A stretch of 28,019 bases of DNA. Origin: an uncultured bacterium (GTDB lineage: Bacteria; Omnitrophota; Omnitrophia; Omnitrophales; JACQLI01). Under the pieces are notes generated by a model. It was given only the letters and a program-made list of their open reading frames with translations, did not search any database and had not been told where the DNA came from. Where the stretch lies: NCBI GenBank assembly GCA_964373135.1, contig CAYJTI010000002.1:1-28019 (forward strand), in the 5' to 3' direction. This document shows positions 1 to 6,027 of this stretch, piece after piece; position 1 is the first letter of the stretch, and the number at the start of each line of letters is the position of its first letter. The position numbers and the translations under genes are program-made.

Positions 1-375
1 CCTGGACTCGTAGACATACGACCCGAACCCCGGCGTGGCGGCCGGATAATTGGCCGGAAGGATGTTGAGGGTCTCCAGGTCTTCTTGAAAGGCTTGAATG
101 TAACTCTCGGTGTAAGCCTCAAGCGGCTTCCCTTCCCGCTGGGCGCCCGCAATCGTCTTGTCGTCCACATCCGTGAGATTCATGACCTGTTTCACCTTGA
201 GGCCCTTAAACTCGAGGAAGCGCCGGAGCACATCTTCAAAGACGAAGGCCCGGAAATTCCCGATGTGGGCATAGTCATACACCGTCGGCCCGCAGGTGTA
301 CATCCGGACCTCCCCTTTTTGGAGCGGTTCAAAGGCCTCGACCTTTCCCGTCAGCGTATTAAAAAATCGAATCAT
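1..375 (-). CDS. cysS: Cysteine--tRNA ligase, N-terminal part (runs off the window start)
   Basis: Manual translation from ATG at 375: MIRFFNTLTGKVEAFEPLQKGEVRMYTCGPTVYDYAHIGNFRAFVFEDVLRRFLEFKGLKVKQVMNLTDVDDKTI. It contains the CysRS motifs CGPTVY, HIGN (HIGH) and N(L/I)TDVDDK. It is absent from the ORF track; the + ORF 85..378 is its antisense shadow. Confidence 0.96.
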   Translation of the reverse strand, partial: MIRFFNTLTGKVEAFEPLQKGEVRMYTCGPTVYDYAHIGNFRAFVFEDVLRRFLEFKGLKVKQVMNLTDVDDKTIAGAQREGKPLEAYTESYIQAFQEDLETLNILPANYPAATPGFGSYVYESR

Positions 376-384
376 TGAATCGAA

Positions 385-1452
385 TCATTCCTCGTAGCGC
401 TTTGCGAGCCCGCGGTCGAGCAGTTCCTGGTTGAGATAATTCCCTTTTTCTAAAACCTTTTGGGGGTCGGTTTCTCCTTTGAGATAAAACACGTCCGTCA
501 GGTAACGGTCAAACTTGTCTCGGCGCGTGACCCCAATGACCACGAAAGCCACTTGTGAAAGGACCCGCTTCACATACCGCGTCGCCTTTCGCCCTTCCTC
601 CGCCTCCGCCGCATTGATGCCACGCAAACGAATCTTTTGCCGCGTCCACACACGAAAGCCCAAATCAATTTGCAGCCAAAGCGTGTCTGCGTCCCAAACT
701 GTTTCGACCGTCGCCTTGTAGGTGTAAAGCGACGCCGGGCCCTTTGAACTTTTCTTGAACCGGTAACGGTCTCCCAGAGAACTTTTTTTTGTCCGGACCA
801 CCTCGACCAGCATTCCCTCCCTCGGCCGGGAAATCCCGCTGAGATTCAAATCGATTCGTGTCGTGAATCCGAGGTCGACGGAATAAAATTCCTCGGTCGG
901 GTGGAGGTCGCGCGGCTTGACAAGGCGGTAGGTGTAAAAGGCGCCGCGAATCGGCACCAGGGCCGGCAAGGGGCGGGCGCGCTCGGCGGAAGTGGGCGCT
1001 GGACTAAGAACGTCCCCGCCCGACAAGGGCAATTTTTTTCGCCGAATACGCTCGGTAAGTTCACGGGTGTTCCAGTGCCCACGGACTGCTTGGCGAAAAA
1101 GCCGTTCGCGTTCCCTCTTCTCCAAAACTTGTGAAAGGAGATTGTAGTGAGTCCAGGGCAATTGTGCGGGCACCCGCACAATTGGGAAACGCCGCTGGAA
1201 ATTTAGGATTTCATAAAGGTTCCGCCAGCTCATTCCAAGGTTGGGGGCGAGCCACCGGACGACCCCGCCGCCGTAACCGGCGCGGCCACGGTGTGTTCTC
1301 AGGTACCTATTGACAAGCCGACCCAGCCTCCAATACGTTCGGACCTTGACCGGCTCGACTGCGGCTTTGGCCTCGGCCCTCCCCTCGACTAGAATCGTTT
1401 TCGCCGCATCCAGAAGGGCTTCATCACTCCCGCGAACCGGCTCCTTCGTCAT
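385..1452 (-). CDS. DUF1016 (YhcG) N-terminal domain fused to a staphylococcal-nuclease (thermonuclease)-like C-terminal domain
   Basis: The N-terminus matches the YhcG-N pattern (TYWRLGRLV..RAGYGGGVV..MSWRNLYEILNF..QLPWTHYNLL..HWNTRELTERI). The C-terminus has SNase motifs (TVWDADTL, IRLRGINAAE, DKFDRYL, NQELLDRGLA). ATG 1452 is preferred because it directly follows the stop of the upstream small ORF; GTG 1491 is an alternative start. Confidence 0.85.
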   Translation of the reverse strand: MTKEPVRGSDEALLDAAKTILVEGRAEAKAAVEPVKVRTYWRLGRLVNRYLRTHRGRAGYGGGVVRWLAPNLGMSWRNLYEILNFQRRFPIVRVPAQLPWTHYNLLSQVLEKRERERLFRQAVRGHWNTRELTERIRRKKLPLSGGDVLSPAPTSAERARPLPALVPIRGAFYTYRLVKPRDLHPTEEFYSVDLGFTTRIDLNLSGISRPREGMLVEVVRTKKSSLGDRYRFKKSSKGPASLYTYKATVETVWDADTLWLQIDLGFRVWTRQKIRLRGINAAEAEEGRKATRYVKRVLSQVAFVVIGVTRRDKFDRYLTDVFYLKGETDPQKVLEKGNYLNQELLDRGLAKRYEE

Positions 1453-1453
1453 C

Positions 1454-1582
1454 TCACGCCACGGCACTTCTCGCGCGGCGCTTGGCCACACGTTTCCTCA
1501 TCTCTCGGTGCGAAATGCCGGCTTTCTTTTCGTACTCCTGAAGAGCGGCTTGAAGTGGTTGGAGAAGACGCGGCAATTTCAT
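1454..1582 (-). CDS. Putative 42-aa basic, helical small protein (MKLPRLLQPLQAALQEYEKKAGISHREMRKRVAKRRARSAVA)
   Basis: Manual translation, below the ORF-track cutoff. It fills the gap between the DUF2283 ORF and the nuclease gene, and its TGA lies 1 nt before the nuclease ATG. No clear SD and no recognised family. Confidence 0.35.
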   Translation of the reverse strand: MKLPRLLQPLQAALQEYEKKAGISHREMRKRVAKRRARSAVA

Positions 1583-1613
1583 TTAGGGCGGGCAAACTGA
1601 GAAGAAAATGGGG

Positions 1614-1802
1614 TTAGACAATCGCGGGGTCTTGTTTTAATTCCGTGGGAATCTTTTTGAGTTCGGGGCGGTTATAGATTTTTGCGAGTTCCACAAAGAC
1701 CCCCTCGAAATTTCCACCTGCTTTCTTTACGCCTACGAATTCAATCCCGACCAGGCCGCCGTTTTTGTCTAAATCAATGTTGACCGAAGGCGAGTGTTCC
1801 AC
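1614..1802 (-). CDS. DUF2283-family small protein (putative antitoxin-type); the 5' end may be truncated or have lost its start
   Basis: VEHSPSVNIDLDKNGGLVGIEF resembles the DUF2283 core. The frame stays open upstream to 1880 (..KYWKKESLYLQFSSEKGVKT..), which resembles the DUF2283 N-terminal strands, but there is no ATG/GTG/TTG in that extension. Confidence 0.7.
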   Translation of the reverse strand: MEHSPSVNIDLDKNGGLVGIEFVGVKKAGGNFEGVFVELAKIYNRPELKKIPTELKQDPAIV

Positions 1803-2004
1803 GGTCTTGACCCCCTTCTCACTGCTAAACTGAAGATAGAGACTCTCTTTTTTCCAATACTTGCAGCGCTTCTTTAAAGCTCAGATTCCGCTGTTGGAAT
1901 CTCTTTGGTGAATCTTTTGCGAATCAGGGGTTACAAGACCCGCTTGCCGCCGCCATTGCCGATGTCAATCAGCGCCATGAACCCTTGAGTTCGGTTTCGC
2001 AAAA

Positions 2005-2013
2005 ATTATATCA
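2005..2013 (-). promoter_or_regulatory. Candidate extended -10 promoter (TG-A-TATAAT) just downstream of gltX
   Basis: The minus strand reads TGATATAAT, 3 nt after the gltX stop and pointing into the accessory insert and cysS. No -35 hexamer is evident. Confidence 0.45.
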
Positions 2014-2016
2014 CAT

Positions 2017-3435
2017 TCAATGACCGAGCGCGCGGGTGAGGCGTGCGGTCAGGCGCTCGGCACCGAGCGGCGGGAAGAGGCGCTTGAGCTCGGGGCCGTG
2101 GGTTTTGCCGGTGAGGGCCATTCGAAGAGGCATGAAAAGGGCTTTCCCTTTCGCCTTGACTTTCCCTTGCAGGGCTCCGACAAAACGTTCATAGAGCTCC
2201 TCGCCGGCCCGAAGAGAAGGAAGGATTGAAGCCGCTGCCTGGAGGATTTCCTGCGCCTCTTTTGTCTTGAGGAGCTTCGAATCTTCGTACGGGAAATCCT
2301 CGTCAAGAATCTGAAGCCGTTCCTCCAGTTCGTCAAAGCGGACGATATTGTCTTTGAAGACCGGGAGGATTTTGTGGACGAGGGTTTCGTCCTGCTTCAG
2401 CTTTTTCTCTTCCTTGAGATAGGCCAGGGCGTGGCGCGAAAATTCTTCGTCCGAAAGCGAGCGGAGGTGCTCGCCATTGACCCAATCGAGTTTGCGGGGG
2501 TCATAAAGGGAGGCCGATTTCGTAATCCGGGAAAGGTCGAAAGTTTTCTTTAACTCCTCCCAGGTGAAGATTTCCCGGTTGTCGCCCGGGGACCAGCCGA
2601 GGAGGGCGATGTAATTGGCGAGGGCGTGAGGAAGCGTGCCCCGTCTCCGGAATTCCCGCACCGAAACCGACTCCAATCGCTTCGAAAGGGGTTCGCCTCC
2701 CGGCCCGTGAATGAGGGAGAGGTGCCCGTACTGGGGCGGGGTGAAGCCGAGCGCTTCAAAAAGAAGGAGATGCCGCGGGGTGTTGGAGAGGTGGTCTTCT
2801 CCGCGAATCACATGGGTGATTTTCATGAGCGCGTCGTCCACGCAAACGGCCAGGTGAAACGTCGGAATCCCGTCCGCCCTTTGAATCACAAAATCTCCCA
2901 TCATCTCATCGAGATTGAATTCGACTTCGCCCCGGATTAAATCATGAACCTTGAGGCGGGGGTTTTCGATTTTGAAACGGACCGTCGGGCGGATTCCCCG
3001 GGCCTTTCTTTTCTCAATCTCCTCCTTTGAAAAGGTGCGCCCCCGGTTGTCAAAGCGGGGCGGCCTCCGCTCAAGGCGCGCCGCGCGCTTCATCTCCTCA
3101 ATCTCTTCCTCTGTGACGTAGCAGTCGTAGGCCTTCCCTGCTTGAATCAGCTCGCGAATGTATTTCTGGTAGGTTGGAATCCGCTCGGATTGCCGGTAGG
3201 GTTCGTACTCCCCGCCCACGCCCGGCCCTTCGTCCCAGCGAATCCCGAGCCAGGCGAGGTCCTCAAGGATGGCGTCAAAATACTCGGGACGGCATCGTTC
3301 CTTGTCCGTGTCTTCAATCCGGAGGATAAATTTTCCGCCCACTTTTTGGGCGAAGAGGTAGTTGAAAAGCGCGGTCCGGACGTTGCCGAGATGAAGGCAG
3401 CCCGTCGGCGCGGGAGCGAAGCGGACGCGAATCAT
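2017..3435 (-). CDS. gltX: Glutamate--tRNA ligase
   Basis: RVRFAPAPTGCLHLGN (HIGH), LRIEDTD, ITHVIRGEDH, PLSKR (KMSKS) and the C-terminal PLRMALTG..GPEL anticodon domain. The ATG overlaps the ispDF stop (ATGA). Confidence 0.98.
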   Translation of the reverse strand: MIRVRFAPAPTGCLHLGNVRTALFNYLFAQKVGGKFILRIEDTDKERCRPEYFDAILEDLAWLGIRWDEGPGVGGEYEPYRQSERIPTYQKYIRELIQAGKAYDCYVTEEEIEEMKRAARLERRPPRFDNRGRTFSKEEIEKRKARGIRPTVRFKIENPRLKVHDLIRGEVEFNLDEMMGDFVIQRADGIPTFHLAVCVDDALMKITHVIRGEDHLSNTPRHLLLFEALGFTPPQYGHLSLIHGPGGEPLSKRLESVSVREFRRRGTLPHALANYIALLGWSPGDNREIFTWEELKKTFDLSRITKSASLYDPRKLDWVNGEHLRSLSDEEFSRHALAYLKEEKKLKQDETLVHKILPVFKDNIVRFDELEERLQILDEDFPYEDSKLLKTKEAQEILQAAASILPSLRAGEELYERFVGALQGKVKAKGKALFMPLRMALTGKTHGPELKRLFPPLGAERLTARLTRALGH

Positions 3436-4841
3436 CGCGGACTTCGAATGAGGGTCACAAGGGCCTCGGCCGTGACGGCGCGGCCTTCCCCTTCCGGACC
3501 CAAGCCCTCCATCGTTTTCGCCTTCACAGAGACCGCTTCCGCTTCCAGTCCGAGGAGGAGGGCGAGCCGCCTCCGGATGAGCTTTTTGTAAGGGCCGAGG
3601 CGGGGCTTCTCCAAAAGAATGACTGAATCAATCCGAGAAGGGAGATGATTTCTCCGGCGGACCTCTTTAAGAACCGCCCGCAGAATTTTTTCACTTCGAA
3701 TATTTTTATGACGGGGGTCCCGGTCCGAAAACCATTCGCCGATATCGCCGGCGCCAATCGCCCCGAGGAGGGCGTCGCTTGCGGCGTGCAAGAGGACGTC
3801 TCCATCCGAATGACCCAGCGCCCCTTTCTCAAACGGGATTCGAACGCCTCCGAGATAAAGTTTTCGCCCCTCGACAAGCCGGTGCGTGTCCCGCCCAAAC
3901 CCCACACAGAACCGGTTCTCTGGTACCGGTTCTGCCGTACCGGTTCTGCCGTACCGGTTCTGCGGTACCGGTTCTGCTGGAACCGGTTCGCGACGGTACC
4001 GGTTCTGCTGTACCGGTTCTGCGGTACCGGTTCTGCGGTACCGGTTCTGCCGTACCGGTTCTGCCGTACCGGTTCTGCCGTACCGGTTCTGCGGTACCGG
4101 TTCTGCTGGAACCGGTTCGCGAGAACCGGTTCGCGAGAACCGGTTCCGATATTCCGCTTCAGCCAGCCGGAGGTCTGAGGATGTGGTGACCTTGAGATTC
4201 AATCCGGAATAGGAAAAAATTTTCACTTTAGCTCCGATGTTTTCCAAAAGCGAGGCCTCATCCGTGGCCGCCAAGGCGCCCGGATGAATTCGGTAAGCCT
4301 TGAGCAAGGTGGAGCGGCGCACAAGCTGGGGTGTTTCGGCCTCGTAGAGATGGGTTCGGTCCACTGTCCCAAGTACTCGGCCATTTCCCGGCGCCACCTG
4401 CTTCAAGGTCGGCACCACGGGACGGGCGAGAATCACGCCCTCAGCCTCCCCCCGTTTTTTCAGAAGAGAGAGGACCGCCGCTTTGGGGGGGAAAGGACGG
4501 GCGCCGTCGTGGACGAGGACCCAGTCCAGTCTCGGAGAGGCTCGGCGGAGAGCGTTCTTCACGGATTCCGCTCGGGTGGCACCGCCCCGGACTAAGTGAA
4601 CCGGAGGGCCTGAGAATCCCCGAAGGATTTCCTTCCTCACCCAGGGCTCGGTCCCGGGCGCAACGGCGAGGAGAATTTCCCGGACCTCAGGGATTCCTTG
4701 AAAAGATTCTAAGGTGTGACGAAGGAGGGGCTTTCCTCCCAGGGGCTCGAAAAGTTTACTCAGGCGGTGTTTCGGCCGGGTCCCTTTATTCCAGAATCGC
4801 CTTCCGGAGCCTCCTCCCGCAATAATTAGGCTAACTCCCAT
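3432..4841 (-). CDS. ispDF: Bifunctional IspD/IspF (MEP cytidylyltransferase + MEcPP synthase) with an ~80-aa repeat-derived linker
   Basis: IspD: LIIAGGGSGRRF, VLVHDGARP, ETPQ, NLKVTT..DL. IspF: VGFGRDTH, GHSDGDVLLHA..DALLGA, VSVKAKT. One continuous frame. The start is set at ATG 4841; the track's extra 45 aa translate a REP hairpin. Confidence 0.93.
   Translation of the reverse strand: MGVSLIIAGGGSGRRFWNKGTRPKHRLSKLFEPLGGKPLLRHTLESFQGIPEVREILLAVAPGTEPWVRKEILRGFSGPPVHLVRGGATRAESVKNALRRASPRLDWVLVHDGARPFPPKAAVLSLLKKRGEAEGVILARPVVPTLKQVAPGNGRVLGTVDRTHLYEAETPQLVRRSTLLKAYRIHPGALAATDEASLLENIGAKVKIFSYSGLNLKVTTSSDLRLAEAEYRNRFSRTGSREPVPAEPVPQNRYGRTGTAEPVRQNRYRRTGTAEPVQQNRYRREPVPAEPVPQNRYGRTGTAEPVPENRFCVGFGRDTHRLVEGRKLYLGGVRIPFEKGALGHSDGDVLLHAASDALLGAIGAGDIGEWFSDRDPRHKNIRSEKILRAVLKEVRRRNHLPSRIDSVILLEKPRLGPYKKLIRRRLALLLGLEAEAVSVKAKTMEGLGPEGEGRAVTAEALVTLIRSPR
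3909..4146. repeat. Tandem array of 17 ACCGGT-core units, period 14 bp (consensus GGTACCGGTTCTGC), in frame inside ispDF
   Basis: ACCGGT cores counted at 3911, 3925, 3939, 3953, 3967, 3982, 3998, 4012, 4026, 4040, 4054, 4068, 4082, 4096, 4111, 4125 and 4139 (13 gaps of 14, 2 of 15, 1 of 16; total 228 bp = 76 codons). Confidence 0.97.
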
Positions 4842-4872
4842 TCCAATGGCGCATCGTCCTTTCTGAATACGC

Positions 4873-4979
4873 CGTTTGACAAATGCGTATCCGGTTTCAA
4901 CCCCCTCACCCTCCCCTCTCCCCCTCTGGGGGAAAGGGTTAAGGGTGAGGGGGAAATCGGGGGCGGAATTTGTCAAACG
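4873..4979. repeat. REP-like hairpin (CCCCTCACCC family, 4901-4953) enclosed by a perfect 12-bp inverted repeat
   Basis: Inner arms CCCCCTCACCCT (4901-4912) / AGGGTGAGGGGG (4942-4953). Outer arms CGTTTGACAAAT (4873-4884) / ATTTGTCAAACG (4968-4979). Intergenic, between the PIN/TRAM gene and ispDF. Confidence 0.85.
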
Positions 4980-4984
4980 CCCTA

Positions 4985-6001
4985 CTAACGACGTCCTGAG
5001 TCTTCGTCCGCGGGCTTCGCAAAAATCATCCGGCCCGCCTGGGTCTGGAGGACACTCGTAATCATCACATTAATGGTCTGGCCGATTCGCCGCCGGCCGT
5101 TGTCCACGACCACCATCGTCCCGTCATCCAAATAGGCCACGCCCTGGTCGTGCTCCTTCCCTTCCTTGAGAACCTTCACCTGCATCGTCTCGCCGGGAAT
5201 CACCACGGGCTTCAGGGCATTGGCGAGCTCGTTGATATTGAGGACCTTCACCCCTTGAAGCTCGGCGACTTTGTTGAGGTTGTAGTCATTGGTGAAAACC
5301 TTGGCATTCACGGCCTGCGCCATCTTCACGAGCTTTGCGTCGACCGTGGAGAGTTCGGGAAAGTCCATCTCCTGGATTCTCACTTCGATGTGCGGATTCC
5401 CTTTGATTCGGTTGAGGATGTCGAGCCCCCGGCGGCCCCGGTTCCGCTTGAGGGGGTCGGCCGAATCGGCAATCAGCTGAAGTTCCTTCAGGACGAACCG
5501 GGGAAGGACGAGACGGCCGCTCAAGAAATGCGCTTCGGCAATGTCTGCAATCCTCCCGTCGATAATGACGCTTGTGTCAAGAAGGATAAGCTCCTCGCCG
5601 GGACTTTTGCTCTCGAGCTTCACGAAGGGAATCAGAAGATTAAACTCTTCCTGTCCCCGGAGGATGGTCACCGCGCCGAGGTAACTGAACATCACGGCCG
5701 AAAGAACCCCGAGCTGATGCAGGCTCTCCTCGGGCATCTGGACATACTCGGCCACCCCCATGAAGAGCCGGTTGACGATAAGCCCCAGGCCAATCCCGAC
5801 CAGAATCGAAAGGATATTGCGGACGGTGTAGCGCTTAAAGAAGTAGTCGATGAGGACGACGAGGGCCGAAAAAAAGAGTCCGACTCCCGCGCCAATCCAC
5901 TTTCCCTGAGGCAGTTCGTAAGGGAAAAACCACTGGAAATGCGAAACATAACCGTAGAGGGTAAACAAACCGACAAAAAGAATTCTCAACATTAGAATCA
6001 T
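4985..6001 (-). CDS. yacL: YacL-family membrane protein with PIN and TRAM domains
   Basis: Four hydrophobic N-terminal segments, PIN motifs ILLDTSVIIDGRI and FTNDYNLNKVA, and TRAM segment VLKEGKEHDQGVAYLDDGTMVVV. SD AAGGAG lies 8 nt before ATG 6001. Its position before ispD matches B. subtilis yacL. Confidence 0.93.
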   Translation of the reverse strand: MILMLRILFVGLFTLYGYVSHFQWFFPYELPQGKWIGAGVGLFFSALVVLIDYFFKRYTVRNILSILVGIGLGLIVNRLFMGVAEYVQMPEESLHQLGVLSAVMFSYLGAVTILRGQEEFNLLIPFVKLESKSPGEELILLDTSVIIDGRIADIAEAHFLSGRLVLPRFVLKELQLIADSADPLKRNRGRRGLDILNRIKGNPHIEVRIQEMDFPELSTVDAKLVKMAQAVNAKVFTNDYNLNKVAELQGVKVLNINELANALKPVVIPGETMQVKVLKEGKEHDQGVAYLDDGTMVVVDNGRRRIGQTINVMITSVLQTQAGRMIFAKPADEDSGRR

Positions 6002-6027
6002 GGTCATCACTCCTTTTTATGATTGGA

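What the first reader, a model, noticed from the sequence alone, without database searches (positions are those of the whole stretch)
385..1452. DUF1016-N domain paired with an SNase nuclease instead of its usual PD-(D/E)xK domain
Seen: a YhcG/DUF1016 N-terminal domain followed by an SNase-fold domain with DADT, R, E and DKFDR motifs; the D40-equivalent reads N (GINAAE). Known: YhcG proteins normally end in a PD-(D/E)xK nuclease. Inference: this is a nuclease-swap architecture with no N-terminal signal or TM segment, so it is cytoplasmic. It is inserted between gltX and cysS and could be a defence, toxin or DNA-processing effector.
Basis: partly seen in the sequence, partly recalled or inferred. 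Interest (0 to 1): 0.7.

Follow-up and report, generated by a model that had tools for sequence, protein, structure and literature searches.

The report
ParB-like SNase nuclease carrying palindrome
The gene encodes a real, probably dimeric DNA-cutting enzyme that joins the DNA-binding head of the uncharacterised YhcG family to a staphylococcal-type nuclease. Like YhcG genes in general, including E. coli yhcG, it carries a perfect DNA palindrome at one fixed spot in its coding sequence, which is probably the enzyme's own binding site.

Summary
Window 385-1452 (-) encodes a 355-aa protein with no signal peptide or membrane segment. The D40-equivalent is N, as in 28% of relatives.

It is not a one-off swap. 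The family has at least 404 clusters at 50% identity, centred on Omnitrophota and Latescibacterota, often with several copies per genome.

The gene is an accessory insertion. gltX and cysS have no gene between them in 7 of 8 relatives. A sister clade sits at asd|truA, which is empty in 11 relatives. Paralogues share homology over the ORF only.

New points:
- The head matches the ParB/Noc DNA-binding domain by sequence profile and by fold.
- A symmetric homodimer is predicted.
- A 26-bp perfect palindrome (1159-1184) lies in the head's coding sequence. Relatives carry one at the same codon position, with Watson-Crick-only covariation. So do canonical YhcG genes and E. coli yhcG.
- Copies of the same palindrome occur elsewhere in several of the genomes.

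Best reading: a palindrome-directed dimeric nuclease acting as a selfish or defence gene. Binding, cleavage and biological role are untested. Earlier notes of this scan reported the palindrome on other DNA.

The parts
385..1452 (-). ORF of the 355-aa nuclease (stop at 385-387)
1033..1452 (-). DUF1016_N head, residues 1-140: long helix 10-53 (predicted dimer interface) plus a ParB/Noc-like HTH DNA-binding domain
   Evidence: Pfam 59.2 bits. VIA ParB 6s6h_B Z 8.8, Spo0J Z 7.6, KorB Z 6.9. Profile hit to Spo0J 6sdk at E 6e-4, then ParB and Noc chains. Dimer model.
1159..1184 (.). Perfect palindrome, 12-nt arms CAATTGTGCGGG / CCCGCACAATTG with a 2-nt spacer. It encodes the variable loop PIVRVPAQL (about residues 90-98) inside the head.
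   Evidence: A second near-copy lies at G000:C7:13279-13304.
958..1032 (-). Low-confidence linker, residues about 141-165
   Evidence: pLDDT below 50 for residues 146-157
733..957 (-). Small five-stranded beta-barrel, residues about 166-240. Its first 29 residues duplicate the SNase beta1-beta2 hairpin (LYTY...DLGF). D193, G195 and F196 are near-invariant.
   Evidence: hhalign probability 94.9%. Weak cold-shock-domain-like match, Z 5.1.
388..732 (-). SNase (thermonuclease) domain, residues 241-355, lacking the last SNase helix
365..389 (.). Two perfect copies of a 12-nt word (365-376 and 378-389, one base between). On the coding strand it reads AATGATTCGATT. It covers the nuclease stop codon and the cysS start codon.
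   Evidence: unexplained
1614..1880 (-). DUF2283 (antitoxin-type) remnant with no usable start codon before the GTG at 1802. It is part of the same 1641-nt insertion (376-2016).
   Evidence: 34.7 bits when read from the upstream stop
2005..2013 (-). TGnTATAAT-like extended -10 word directly after the gltX stop, at the edge of the insertion
   Evidence: read; the consensus scan found no full promoter

Best explanation
The gene encodes a cytoplasmic, homodimeric, site-directed DNA endonuclease of the YhcG kind. Two ParB/Noc-type HTH heads, held together by the long N-terminal helix, recognise a long palindrome. A copy of that palindrome is written into the gene's own head-coding sequence. Through a flexible linker, a beta-barrel and a Ca2+-type SNase domain cut DNA near the bound site. 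This would be a FokI-like division of labour with a homing-endonuclease-sized site. Biologically it is an accessory, self-perpetuating gene. It entered the gltX|cysS junction as a small cassette and has since been inherited vertically under purifying selection. In other genomes the family multiplies as a bare ORF. I propose that breaks at other genomic copies of the palindrome are repaired from the gene. This would spread the gene, or fragments of it, in a homing-like way. SHOWN: the domain architecture, intact catalytic residues, insertion status, copy-number behaviour, the palindrome with its covariation, and the extragenic copies. INFERRED: that the head binds the palindrome, that the enzyme cuts DNA, and the homing-like spread.
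For: Architecture and fold. Active site across 196 members: D21-equivalent 196, R35 195, R87 195, E43 180; D40-equivalent is D in 137 and N in 54. The head resembles the ParB DNA-binding domain. The N-domain profile hits Spo0J 6sdk at E 6e-4 on the LSxGHxRxLL helix, and five of the six other hits (E 0.13-0.16) are ParB or Noc chains. Fold matches to ParB, Spo0J, KorB, SopB and VirB give Z 5.1-8.8. Homodimer model: score 0.72 against a best control of 0.38. That mark was reached by 20 of 30 proteins solved as pairs of one chain and 1 of 23 solved as single chains. The runs agree in at least 96% of contacts and partner pLDDT is at least 78. The interface is the antiparallel helix 9-54. Palindrome: 83 of 104 family ORFs have at least 11 of 14 complementary positions at the same codon position. 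On 98 rows, 85.1% of cells pair, against 57.0 +/- 0.9 in shuffles (0 of 500 reach it). There are 351 double-sided changes against 105 +/- 9.5. Slid controls give 26-47%. G-U pairs are rare in the inner 8 pairs, which points to a DNA-level rather than RNA-only constraint. The same feature occurs in canonical YhcG genes and in E. coli yhcG, as a perfect 15+3+15 palindrome. Extra copies of the same palindrome: G000 has 1, G002 has 2, G042 has 4 sites. G041 has 18 sites, about 6 of them in gene fragments centred on the palindrome. Accessory status: gltX|cysS has no gene between them in 7 of 8 relatives and asd|truA is empty in 11. 27 of 41 related genomes have matches, with up to 6 near-full-length copies. 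Same-genome paralogues are alike over the ORF only, for example 94% over 1027 nt.
Against: No binding or cleavage was tested. SNase is intrinsically non-specific and needs Ca2+, which is scarce in cytoplasm. The E. coli yhcG and G003 palindromes are unique in their genomes, so extragenic targets are not a general feature. A gene holding its own target would also be cut. Near-identical paralogues lie at unrelated sites with no shared flank motif. Orthologues at asd|truA diverge no faster than their neighbours (Asd 80-82%, nuclease 72-78%, TruA 64-70%). That looks like stable vertical inheritance, not active homing. The ParB likeness rests on modest scores for a helical domain. G000 is rich in unrelated REP-like palindromes (159 against about 3.5 expected). 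The correlation between palindrome and HTH divergence is only weakly stronger than for other domains.
Confidence: 0.45

Rival explanations
1. Single-gene anti-phage or anti-plasmid defence nuclease, a YhcG/PDC-S02 variant with a swapped effector. The internal palindrome is an autoregulatory operator or self-mark that keeps a toxic nuclease repressed or sequestered. Extragenic copies are relics of dead paralogues.
For: The head matches 26 PADLOC PDC-S02 models (best E 6e-20). DUF1016 genes are enriched next to restriction-modification and BREX loci (PMC9881135). Some family members lie beside an MmeI-type restriction-modification gene, canonical YhcG, ORF6N, HsdM, an integrase and toxin-antitoxin genes. 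A unique palindrome in single-copy E. coli yhcG fits a cis-regulatory site. Strong purifying selection acts on the gene.
Against: PDC-S02 is only a candidate system, and only the head matches it. Many copies sit alone inside housekeeping operons, not in defence islands. Multiple ORF-only paralogues per genome and palindrome-centred gene fragments are not expected of a defence gene.
Confidence: 0.3
2. The palindrome acts as a nucleic-acid hairpin or cruciform, for example an mRNA structure limiting translation or a ssDNA hairpin in recombination. It would then be unrelated to what the head binds. The protein would be a general DNA- or RNA-degrading enzyme.
For: Symmetry is perfect through the centre and arms reach 15 nt in ORFs and 18-22 nt in extragenic copies. 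That is more than a protein site usually needs. The host genome is rich in hairpin repeats.
Against: G-U pairs are almost absent in the inner 8 pairs. No U-tract follows the stem. The element sits in the DNA-binding domain's coding region in every subfamily. A symmetric dimer is predicted.
Confidence: 0.12
3. Toxin of a toxin-antitoxin pair, with the small upstream gene as its antitoxin.
For: Small antitoxin-type genes lie directly upstream in several loci: the DUF2283 remnant here, a MazE-like gene in L012, Phd-ParE in L042, and HTH_37 in L038.
Against: The upstream genes belong to different families and often have their own toxin. They are absent at many loci, where asd, msrAB or gltX lie directly upstream. 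The one here lacks a start codon.
Confidence: 0.05
4. Host housekeeping enzyme for DNA repair or nucleotide salvage in small-genome Omnitrophota.
For: Co-oriented and tightly packed with gltX/cysS or asd/truA, with overlapping stop and start codons. It evolves no faster than its neighbours.
Against: No match in 14 of 41 related genomes, including 6 of 23 high-quality ones. Copy number is variable. Both junctions are empty in most relatives.
Confidence: 0.05

Closest known systems
YhcG / DUF1016 family (COG4804; Pfam PF17761 + PF06250; PADLOC candidate PDC-S02)
   Same: Same N-terminal head (59 bits) and the same ORF-internal palindrome at the equivalent loop, including in E. coli yhcG. Single-gene and accessory. 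Function unknown.
   Different: The C-terminal PD-(D/E)xK domain is replaced by a beta-barrel plus SNase. The family centres on Omnitrophota and Latescibacterota and is often multi-copy.
Staphylococcal nuclease / thermonuclease, and phage thermonuclease-like endonucleases (phrog_452)
   Same: Same fold and catalytic set (D21, R35, E43, R87 equivalents). 35-39% identity to phage 'thermonuclease/endonuclease' proteins.
   Different: Not secreted. Lacks the last helix. The D40-equivalent is N. Fused to a DNA-binding head and an extra barrel.
ParB/Spo0J, Noc and KorB DNA-binding domains with their palindromic sites (parS, NBS, OB)
   Same: The HTH domain is alike by profile and by fold. A palindromic site associated with the protein's own gene recalls parS near parB (the latter from my own knowledge).
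   Different: No ParB N-terminal CTPase domain and no partition partner. The palindrome is longer (22-33 bp), and binding is untested.
FokI-type and homing endonucleases
   Same: A separate recognition module and an unspecific cleavage module. A dimer on a long site. Free-standing ORFs lodged between conserved genes, with presence/absence between relatives.
   Different: SNase is not among the homing endonuclease catalytic families I know of (own knowledge). The site lies inside the gene rather than being split by it. No homing has been shown.
REP/REPIN elements with RAYT genes; Rickettsia palindromic elements
   Same: A gene linked to short palindromes dispersed in the same genome, some lying in frame inside other genes (gshB in G002).
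   Different: Few copies (1-18). The palindrome lies inside the gene, not flanking it. The nuclease is not of the HUH type.

Membership tests
DUF1016_N (PF17761) | Pfam score over the gathering threshold | tested here: met
   59.2 bits against 32.8, residues 18-139
YhcG family proper (COG4804 = PF17761 + PF06250) | C-terminal PD-(D/E)xK YhcG_C domain | tested here: not met
   No PF06250 hit at E<=1. The C-terminus is an SNase domain.
SNase / thermonuclease (PF00565) | Pfam gathering score | tested here: inconclusive
   20.7 bits against 21 for this sequence. Many relatives pass. The family profile hits thermonuclease chains at E 3.8e-6.
SNase / thermonuclease (PF00565) | OB-type SNase fold | tested here: met
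   VIA Z 12.7, rmsd 1.6 A, 99 residues; Foldseek TM 0.67
SNase / thermonuclease (PF00565) | Catalytic and Ca2+-binding residues D21, D40, E43, R35, R87 | tested here: met
   All are present except D40, which is N. N occurs in 54 of 196 relatives and D in 137.
ParB/Noc/KorB-type HTH DNA-binding domain | Sequence or fold match to the DNA-binding domain | tested here: inconclusive
   Profile hit to Spo0J at E 6e-4; ParB and Noc at 0.13-0.16. Z 8.8, 7.6 and 6.9 are below the safe level for helical folds.
ParB family proper | N-terminal ParB/Srx CTPase domain | tested here: not met
   No such Pfam hit; residues 1-55 form one long helix
PADLOC PDC-S02 candidate defence gene | Full-length match to the models | tested here: not met
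   Matches cover residues 1-160 only
Defence-island gene | Regular neighbourhood of defence genes | tested here: inconclusive
   Neighbours are mixed: housekeeping genes at many loci; restriction-modification, toxin-antitoxin, ORF6N and integrase genes at others
Type II toxin-antitoxin toxin | A conserved adjacent antitoxin gene | tested here: not met
   The upstream genes differ in family or are absent
Homing endonuclease gene | Cleavage of the empty allele and copying of the gene into it | not testable with these tools
   Only indirect signs: site-specific clades, empty sites in relatives, ORF-only paralogues

The most novel reading that the evidence does not exclude
DUF1016/YhcG heads, whatever nuclease they carry, are palindrome-guided selfish nucleases. 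Each gene encodes a dimeric ParB-like head that recognises a long palindrome embedded in its own coding sequence. Breaks made at other copies of that palindrome are repaired from the gene, spreading the gene or palindrome-centred fragments of it. This would be a new kind of homing element, testable in E. coli with yhcG.
Probability: 0.2. Interest if true: 0.85.

Novelty: new variant of a known kind. Interest (0 to 1): 0.62.

Why it matters
YhcG/DUF1016 is a very widespread 'unknown' nuclease family. It is listed as a candidate defence gene and is common in restriction-modification loci and mobile elements. This work shows three things: its head looks like a ParB-type dimeric DNA binder; the effector domain is interchangeable (PD-(D/E)xK or SNase); and every subfamily keeps a covarying perfect palindrome inside the head's coding sequence. 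Together these give a concrete, testable handle on what the family recognises. E. coli yhcG carries the same feature, so the question can be tested in a model organism. If the palindrome is the cognate site, these proteins would be natural long-site nucleases with a modular design.

Tried and rejected
- A single-sequence search against PDB chains found nothing.
- NCBIfam gave only a weak EcnA match, 18 bits against a cut-off of 180.
- Rfam found no family in 1-6000.
- The consensus scan found no full promoter or convincing terminator on the minus strand between gltX and cysS.
- No RNA holder was listed among public runs, so nothing can be said about expression.
- Two contigs in run X1 join cysS to gltX, skipping about 1700 nt. 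Their matching sides are only 20-30 nt at 90% likeness, so they are probably relatives with an empty site, not an empty allele of this strain.
- No conserved flank motif or target-site duplication was seen around paralogues. At asd|truA at most 2 nt are ambiguous at the junction.
- Junction sequences of relatives are too diverged to fix the insertion ends at gltX|cysS.
- Partial Mantel test: palindrome against HTH divergence r 0.21, against other domains 0.11. This is too weak and too confounded by phylogeny to count.
- Paper searches for DUF1016/YhcG with palindrome or inverted repeat, for PDC-S02 or COG4804, and for SNase with anti-phage found no description of this architecture or of the palindrome.
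- The ORF-internal palindrome is not a terminator: no U-tract follows it.

Full report
**1. The gene and its domains**

The ORF runs from the ATG at 1452 to the stop at 385-387 on the minus strand and encodes 355 residues. Homologues start at the same place.

- Pfam finds DUF1016_N well over threshold: 59.2 bits against 32.8, residues 18-139.
- SNase scores 20.7 bits, a hair under its threshold of 21.
- Several other results settle the SNase call. phrog_452 'endonuclease' matches at E 2e-22. Phage 'thermonuclease/endonuclease' proteins are 35-39% identical. The family profile hits thermonuclease chains at E 3.8e-6. An AlphaFold model (pLDDT 87) matches SNase with Foldseek TM 0.67 and VIA Z 12.7, rmsd 1.6 A over 99 residues.
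- No YhcG_C (PF06250) domain is present.
- The N-terminus is hydrophilic and modelled as one long helix, so the protein is presumably cytoplasmic. This is read from the sequence; no signal-peptide predictor was run.

**2. Active site**

Counts among 196 full-length relatives:

| SNase residue | Conserved in |
|---|---|
| D21 equivalent | 196 |
| D19 equivalent | 194 |
| R35 equivalent | 195 |
| R87 equivalent | 195 |
| E43 equivalent | 180 |
| D40 equivalent | D in 137, N in 54 |

The asparagine here is therefore a normal variant, and the family is under selection to stay catalytically competent. The last SNase helix is missing throughout the family.

**3. A third domain**

Residues about 166-240 form a five-stranded barrel. 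Its first 29 residues are a duplicate of the SNase beta1-beta2 hairpin, LYTY...DLGF (hhalign probability 94.9%). D193, G195 and F196 are as conserved as the catalytic residues. Stand-alone 'barrel + SNase' proteins of about 205 residues also exist (P0020, P0025, P0030).

**4. The head resembles a ParB-type DNA-binding domain**

- Fold search places residues 32-143 on ParB (6s6h_B, Z 8.8), Spo0J (Z 7.6), KorB (Z 6.9), and on SopB and VirB.
- Independently, a profile of the head alone hits B. subtilis Spo0J at E 6e-4 on the LSxGHxRxLL helix. Five of the six other hits, at E 0.13-0.16, are ParB or Noc chains.
- Each score is modest, but the two lines agree.
- A homodimer prediction passes its controls. 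The score is 0.72 against a best control of 0.38. That mark was reached by 20 of 30 proteins solved as pairs of one chain and 1 of 23 solved as single chains. The runs agree in at least 96% of contacts and partner pLDDT is at least 78.
- The interface is the antiparallel long helix 9-54, which would place two heads symmetrically.

**5. Size and spread of the family**

- An exhaustive search finds 3619 cluster representatives at E<=1e-3 and 404 at E<=1e-30. Most of the best 150 listed match over nearly the whole query.
- Among GTDB species genomes, 397 loci encode a relative. The top hits are Omnitrophota, Latescibacterota, MAGs labelled Planctomycetales, Marinamargulisbacteria, Verrucomicrobiota and others.
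- The window's genome belongs to Omnitrophota. G002 is placed in its family by the genome search, and one G002 family-member protein is identical to that of a named Omnitrophota MAG.
- Of 41 related genomes, 27 have matches, with up to six near-full-length copies in one 1.5-Mb genome.
- No paper in the searchable library describes the architecture.

**6. The gene is an insertion**

- ispDF-gltX-cysS is conserved. In 7 of 8 relatives no gene lies between gltX and cysS: 6 have gaps of about 40 nt or less and one has 179 nt.
- The eighth relative, G001, holds an RHH antitoxin, a ParE toxin and a membrane protein at that spot.
- Here 1641 nt (376-2016) are inserted: the nuclease gene plus a DUF2283 remnant without a start codon.
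- A 56%-identical homologue (P0004) sits at the same junction in another organism.
- The sister clade (P0011-P0013, about 50% identity) always sits between asd and truA. That junction is empty in 11 relatives.
- At asd|truA the three orthologues are 72-78% identical, against 80-82% for Asd and 64-70% for TruA. After insertion the gene has therefore been inherited vertically under purifying selection, with its stop overlapping the truA start.
- Neighbours of 22 further copies are a mixture. Housekeeping genes include hemE, ligA and comEC. Others are toxin-antitoxin, restriction-modification, ORF6N and integrase genes. One copy lies in a clear restriction-modification island beside a canonical YhcG.

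**7. Behaviour as a bare ORF**

The tree shows genome-specific bursts of paralogues. Same-genome paralogues are alike over the ORF only. For example, L087 and L090 are 94% identical over 1027 nt, starting 11 nt after the start codon and ending 9 nt after the stop. No flank motif is shared.

**8. The palindrome**

- Inside the head's coding sequence, at 1159-1184, lies a perfect palindrome with 12-nt arms and a 2-nt spacer. Arms of 11 nt or more turned up in 1 of 200 codon shuffles of this ORF.
- Relatives carry their own palindrome at the same codon position, the variable loop 'FPI-x6-L-W'. Of 104 ORFs, 83 have at least 11 of 14 complementary positions.
- The sequences differ between members but stay complementary. 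On 98 rows, 85.1% of cells pair, against 57.0 +/- 0.9 in shuffles (0 of 500). There are 351 double-sided changes against 105 +/- 9.5. Slid controls give 26-47%.
- G-U pairs are nearly absent in the inner eight pairs, which points to a constraint on duplex DNA or on both strands, not on the mRNA alone.
- Caveat: each row's axis was chosen by best complementarity, which inflates the figures somewhat.
- Canonical YhcG genes of relatives have the feature too. L178 and L187 differ by a compensatory change.
- E. coli K-12 yhcG has a perfect 15+3+15 palindrome at residues 126-137, unique in its chromosome.
- I found this before looking at the scan's notes. Earlier follow-up notes on other genomes report the same feature. 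I found no paper on it.

**9. Copies of the palindrome elsewhere**

| Genome | Copies of the gene's palindrome |
|---|---|
| G000 (this genome) | One extra, 2 mismatches, in the gap after rarA |
| G002 | Two extra, 1 mismatch each; one inside gshB |
| G003 | None beyond the gene |
| G041 (Latescibacterota) | 18 sites in all |
| G042 (Latescibacterota) | 4 sites |

The 18 sites in G041 break down as follows: two in paralogues, one in a further copy, about six in gene fragments centred on the palindrome, and about eight isolated. The isolated ones include mirrored (compensatory) variants and arms extended to 18-22 nt.

G000 is in any case rich in unrelated REP-like palindromes: 159 with arms of 11 nt or more, against about 3.5 expected.

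**10. Reading**

The simplest account of a dimeric ParB-like head and a covarying duplex palindrome kept in the head's own gene across all subfamilies is that the palindrome is the head's cognate site. The nuclease domain, which is interchangeable, would then act near bound sites.

What that does for the cell is open.

- For a selfish, homing-like reading: ORF-only multiplication, insertion between abutting conserved genes, site-bound clades, and palindrome-centred fragments.
- For a defence nuclease with an internal operator: the restriction-modification and toxin-antitoxin contexts, the PDC-S02 likeness of the head, and the unique palindrome of single-copy yhcG.
- Stable vertical inheritance fits a defence gene or a domesticated element better than active homing.

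I rank the selfish reading slightly ahead. Nothing here shows binding, cleavage or a phenotype.

**11. Verdict**

It is a real nuclease swap, but a common one, with a missed domain and a missed cis element.
- Novelty: a new variant of a known but uncharacterised kind.
- Interest is moderate to high, mainly because the palindrome and the ParB-like head make the whole YhcG family testable.

Noticed in passing
window 3911-4146: A 14-nt unit (ACCGGTTCTGCGGT) repeated 16.6 times in frame inside ispDF gives an ~80-residue linker. The unit belongs to a palindromic repeat family seen across the genome. The scan has already noted this (e1-5285966, e1-5285967).
   Followed up: partly
window 1614-1880 (-): DUF2283 (antitoxin-type) reading frame, 34.7 bits. 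It has no ATG, GTG or TTG before residue 27, so it is probably a decaying remnant of a toxin-antitoxin cassette at the same insertion spot.
   Followed up: partly
window 365-389: Two perfect copies of a 12-nt word, one base apart (coding-strand reading AATGATTCGATT). It gives the nuclease gene its stop codon and cysS its start codon. The origin is unexplained; it may be a repair scar of the insertion.
   Followed up: no
L030 (G001:C8) 1945-3176: In a relative of the same family, the gltX|cysS gap holds an RHH antitoxin, a ParE toxin and a 220-residue membrane protein instead of the nuclease. The junction is therefore a hotspot for accessory genes.
   Followed up: yes
whole genome G000, e.g. 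C1:11085-11110, C15:6653-6678, C93:4604-4659: 159 perfect palindromes with arms of at least 11 nt, against about 3.5 expected. They fall into several REP-like families, e.g. GTAGGTCACACTT|AAGTGTGACCTAC in many copies.
   Followed up: partly
L158 (G002:C2) 1482-1503: The palindrome of one G002 nuclease paralogue also lies inside the glutathione synthetase gene gshB, in its N-terminal domain. This recalls palindromic elements inserted in frame in Rickettsia genes.
   Followed up: partly
L002 1420-1806 and L003 1363-1887 (G000 contigs C78, C5): Two short ORFs (128 and 174 residues) in the same genome carry only a weak DUF1016_N-like domain with no nuclease domain. They score 24-30 bits, below the cut-off.
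   Followed up: partly
L011 6533-6904: A 23S_rRNA_IVP/bAvd-type four-helix-bundle gene is lodged between leuB and asd, next to the asd|truA nuclease insertion. It is another small gene of a kind often found scattered in genomes.
   Followed up: no
L090 5094-5720 and L087 5830-6055 (Latescibacterota G041): A short repeated array lies downstream of two nuclease paralogues: several blastn matches of 60-160 nt at 76-90% identity. I did not study it.
   Followed up: no
window 4985-6010 (-): A PIN-TRAM protein gene lies directly upstream of ispDF, as on the P0004 contig, so it is part of the conserved synteny.
   Followed up: no
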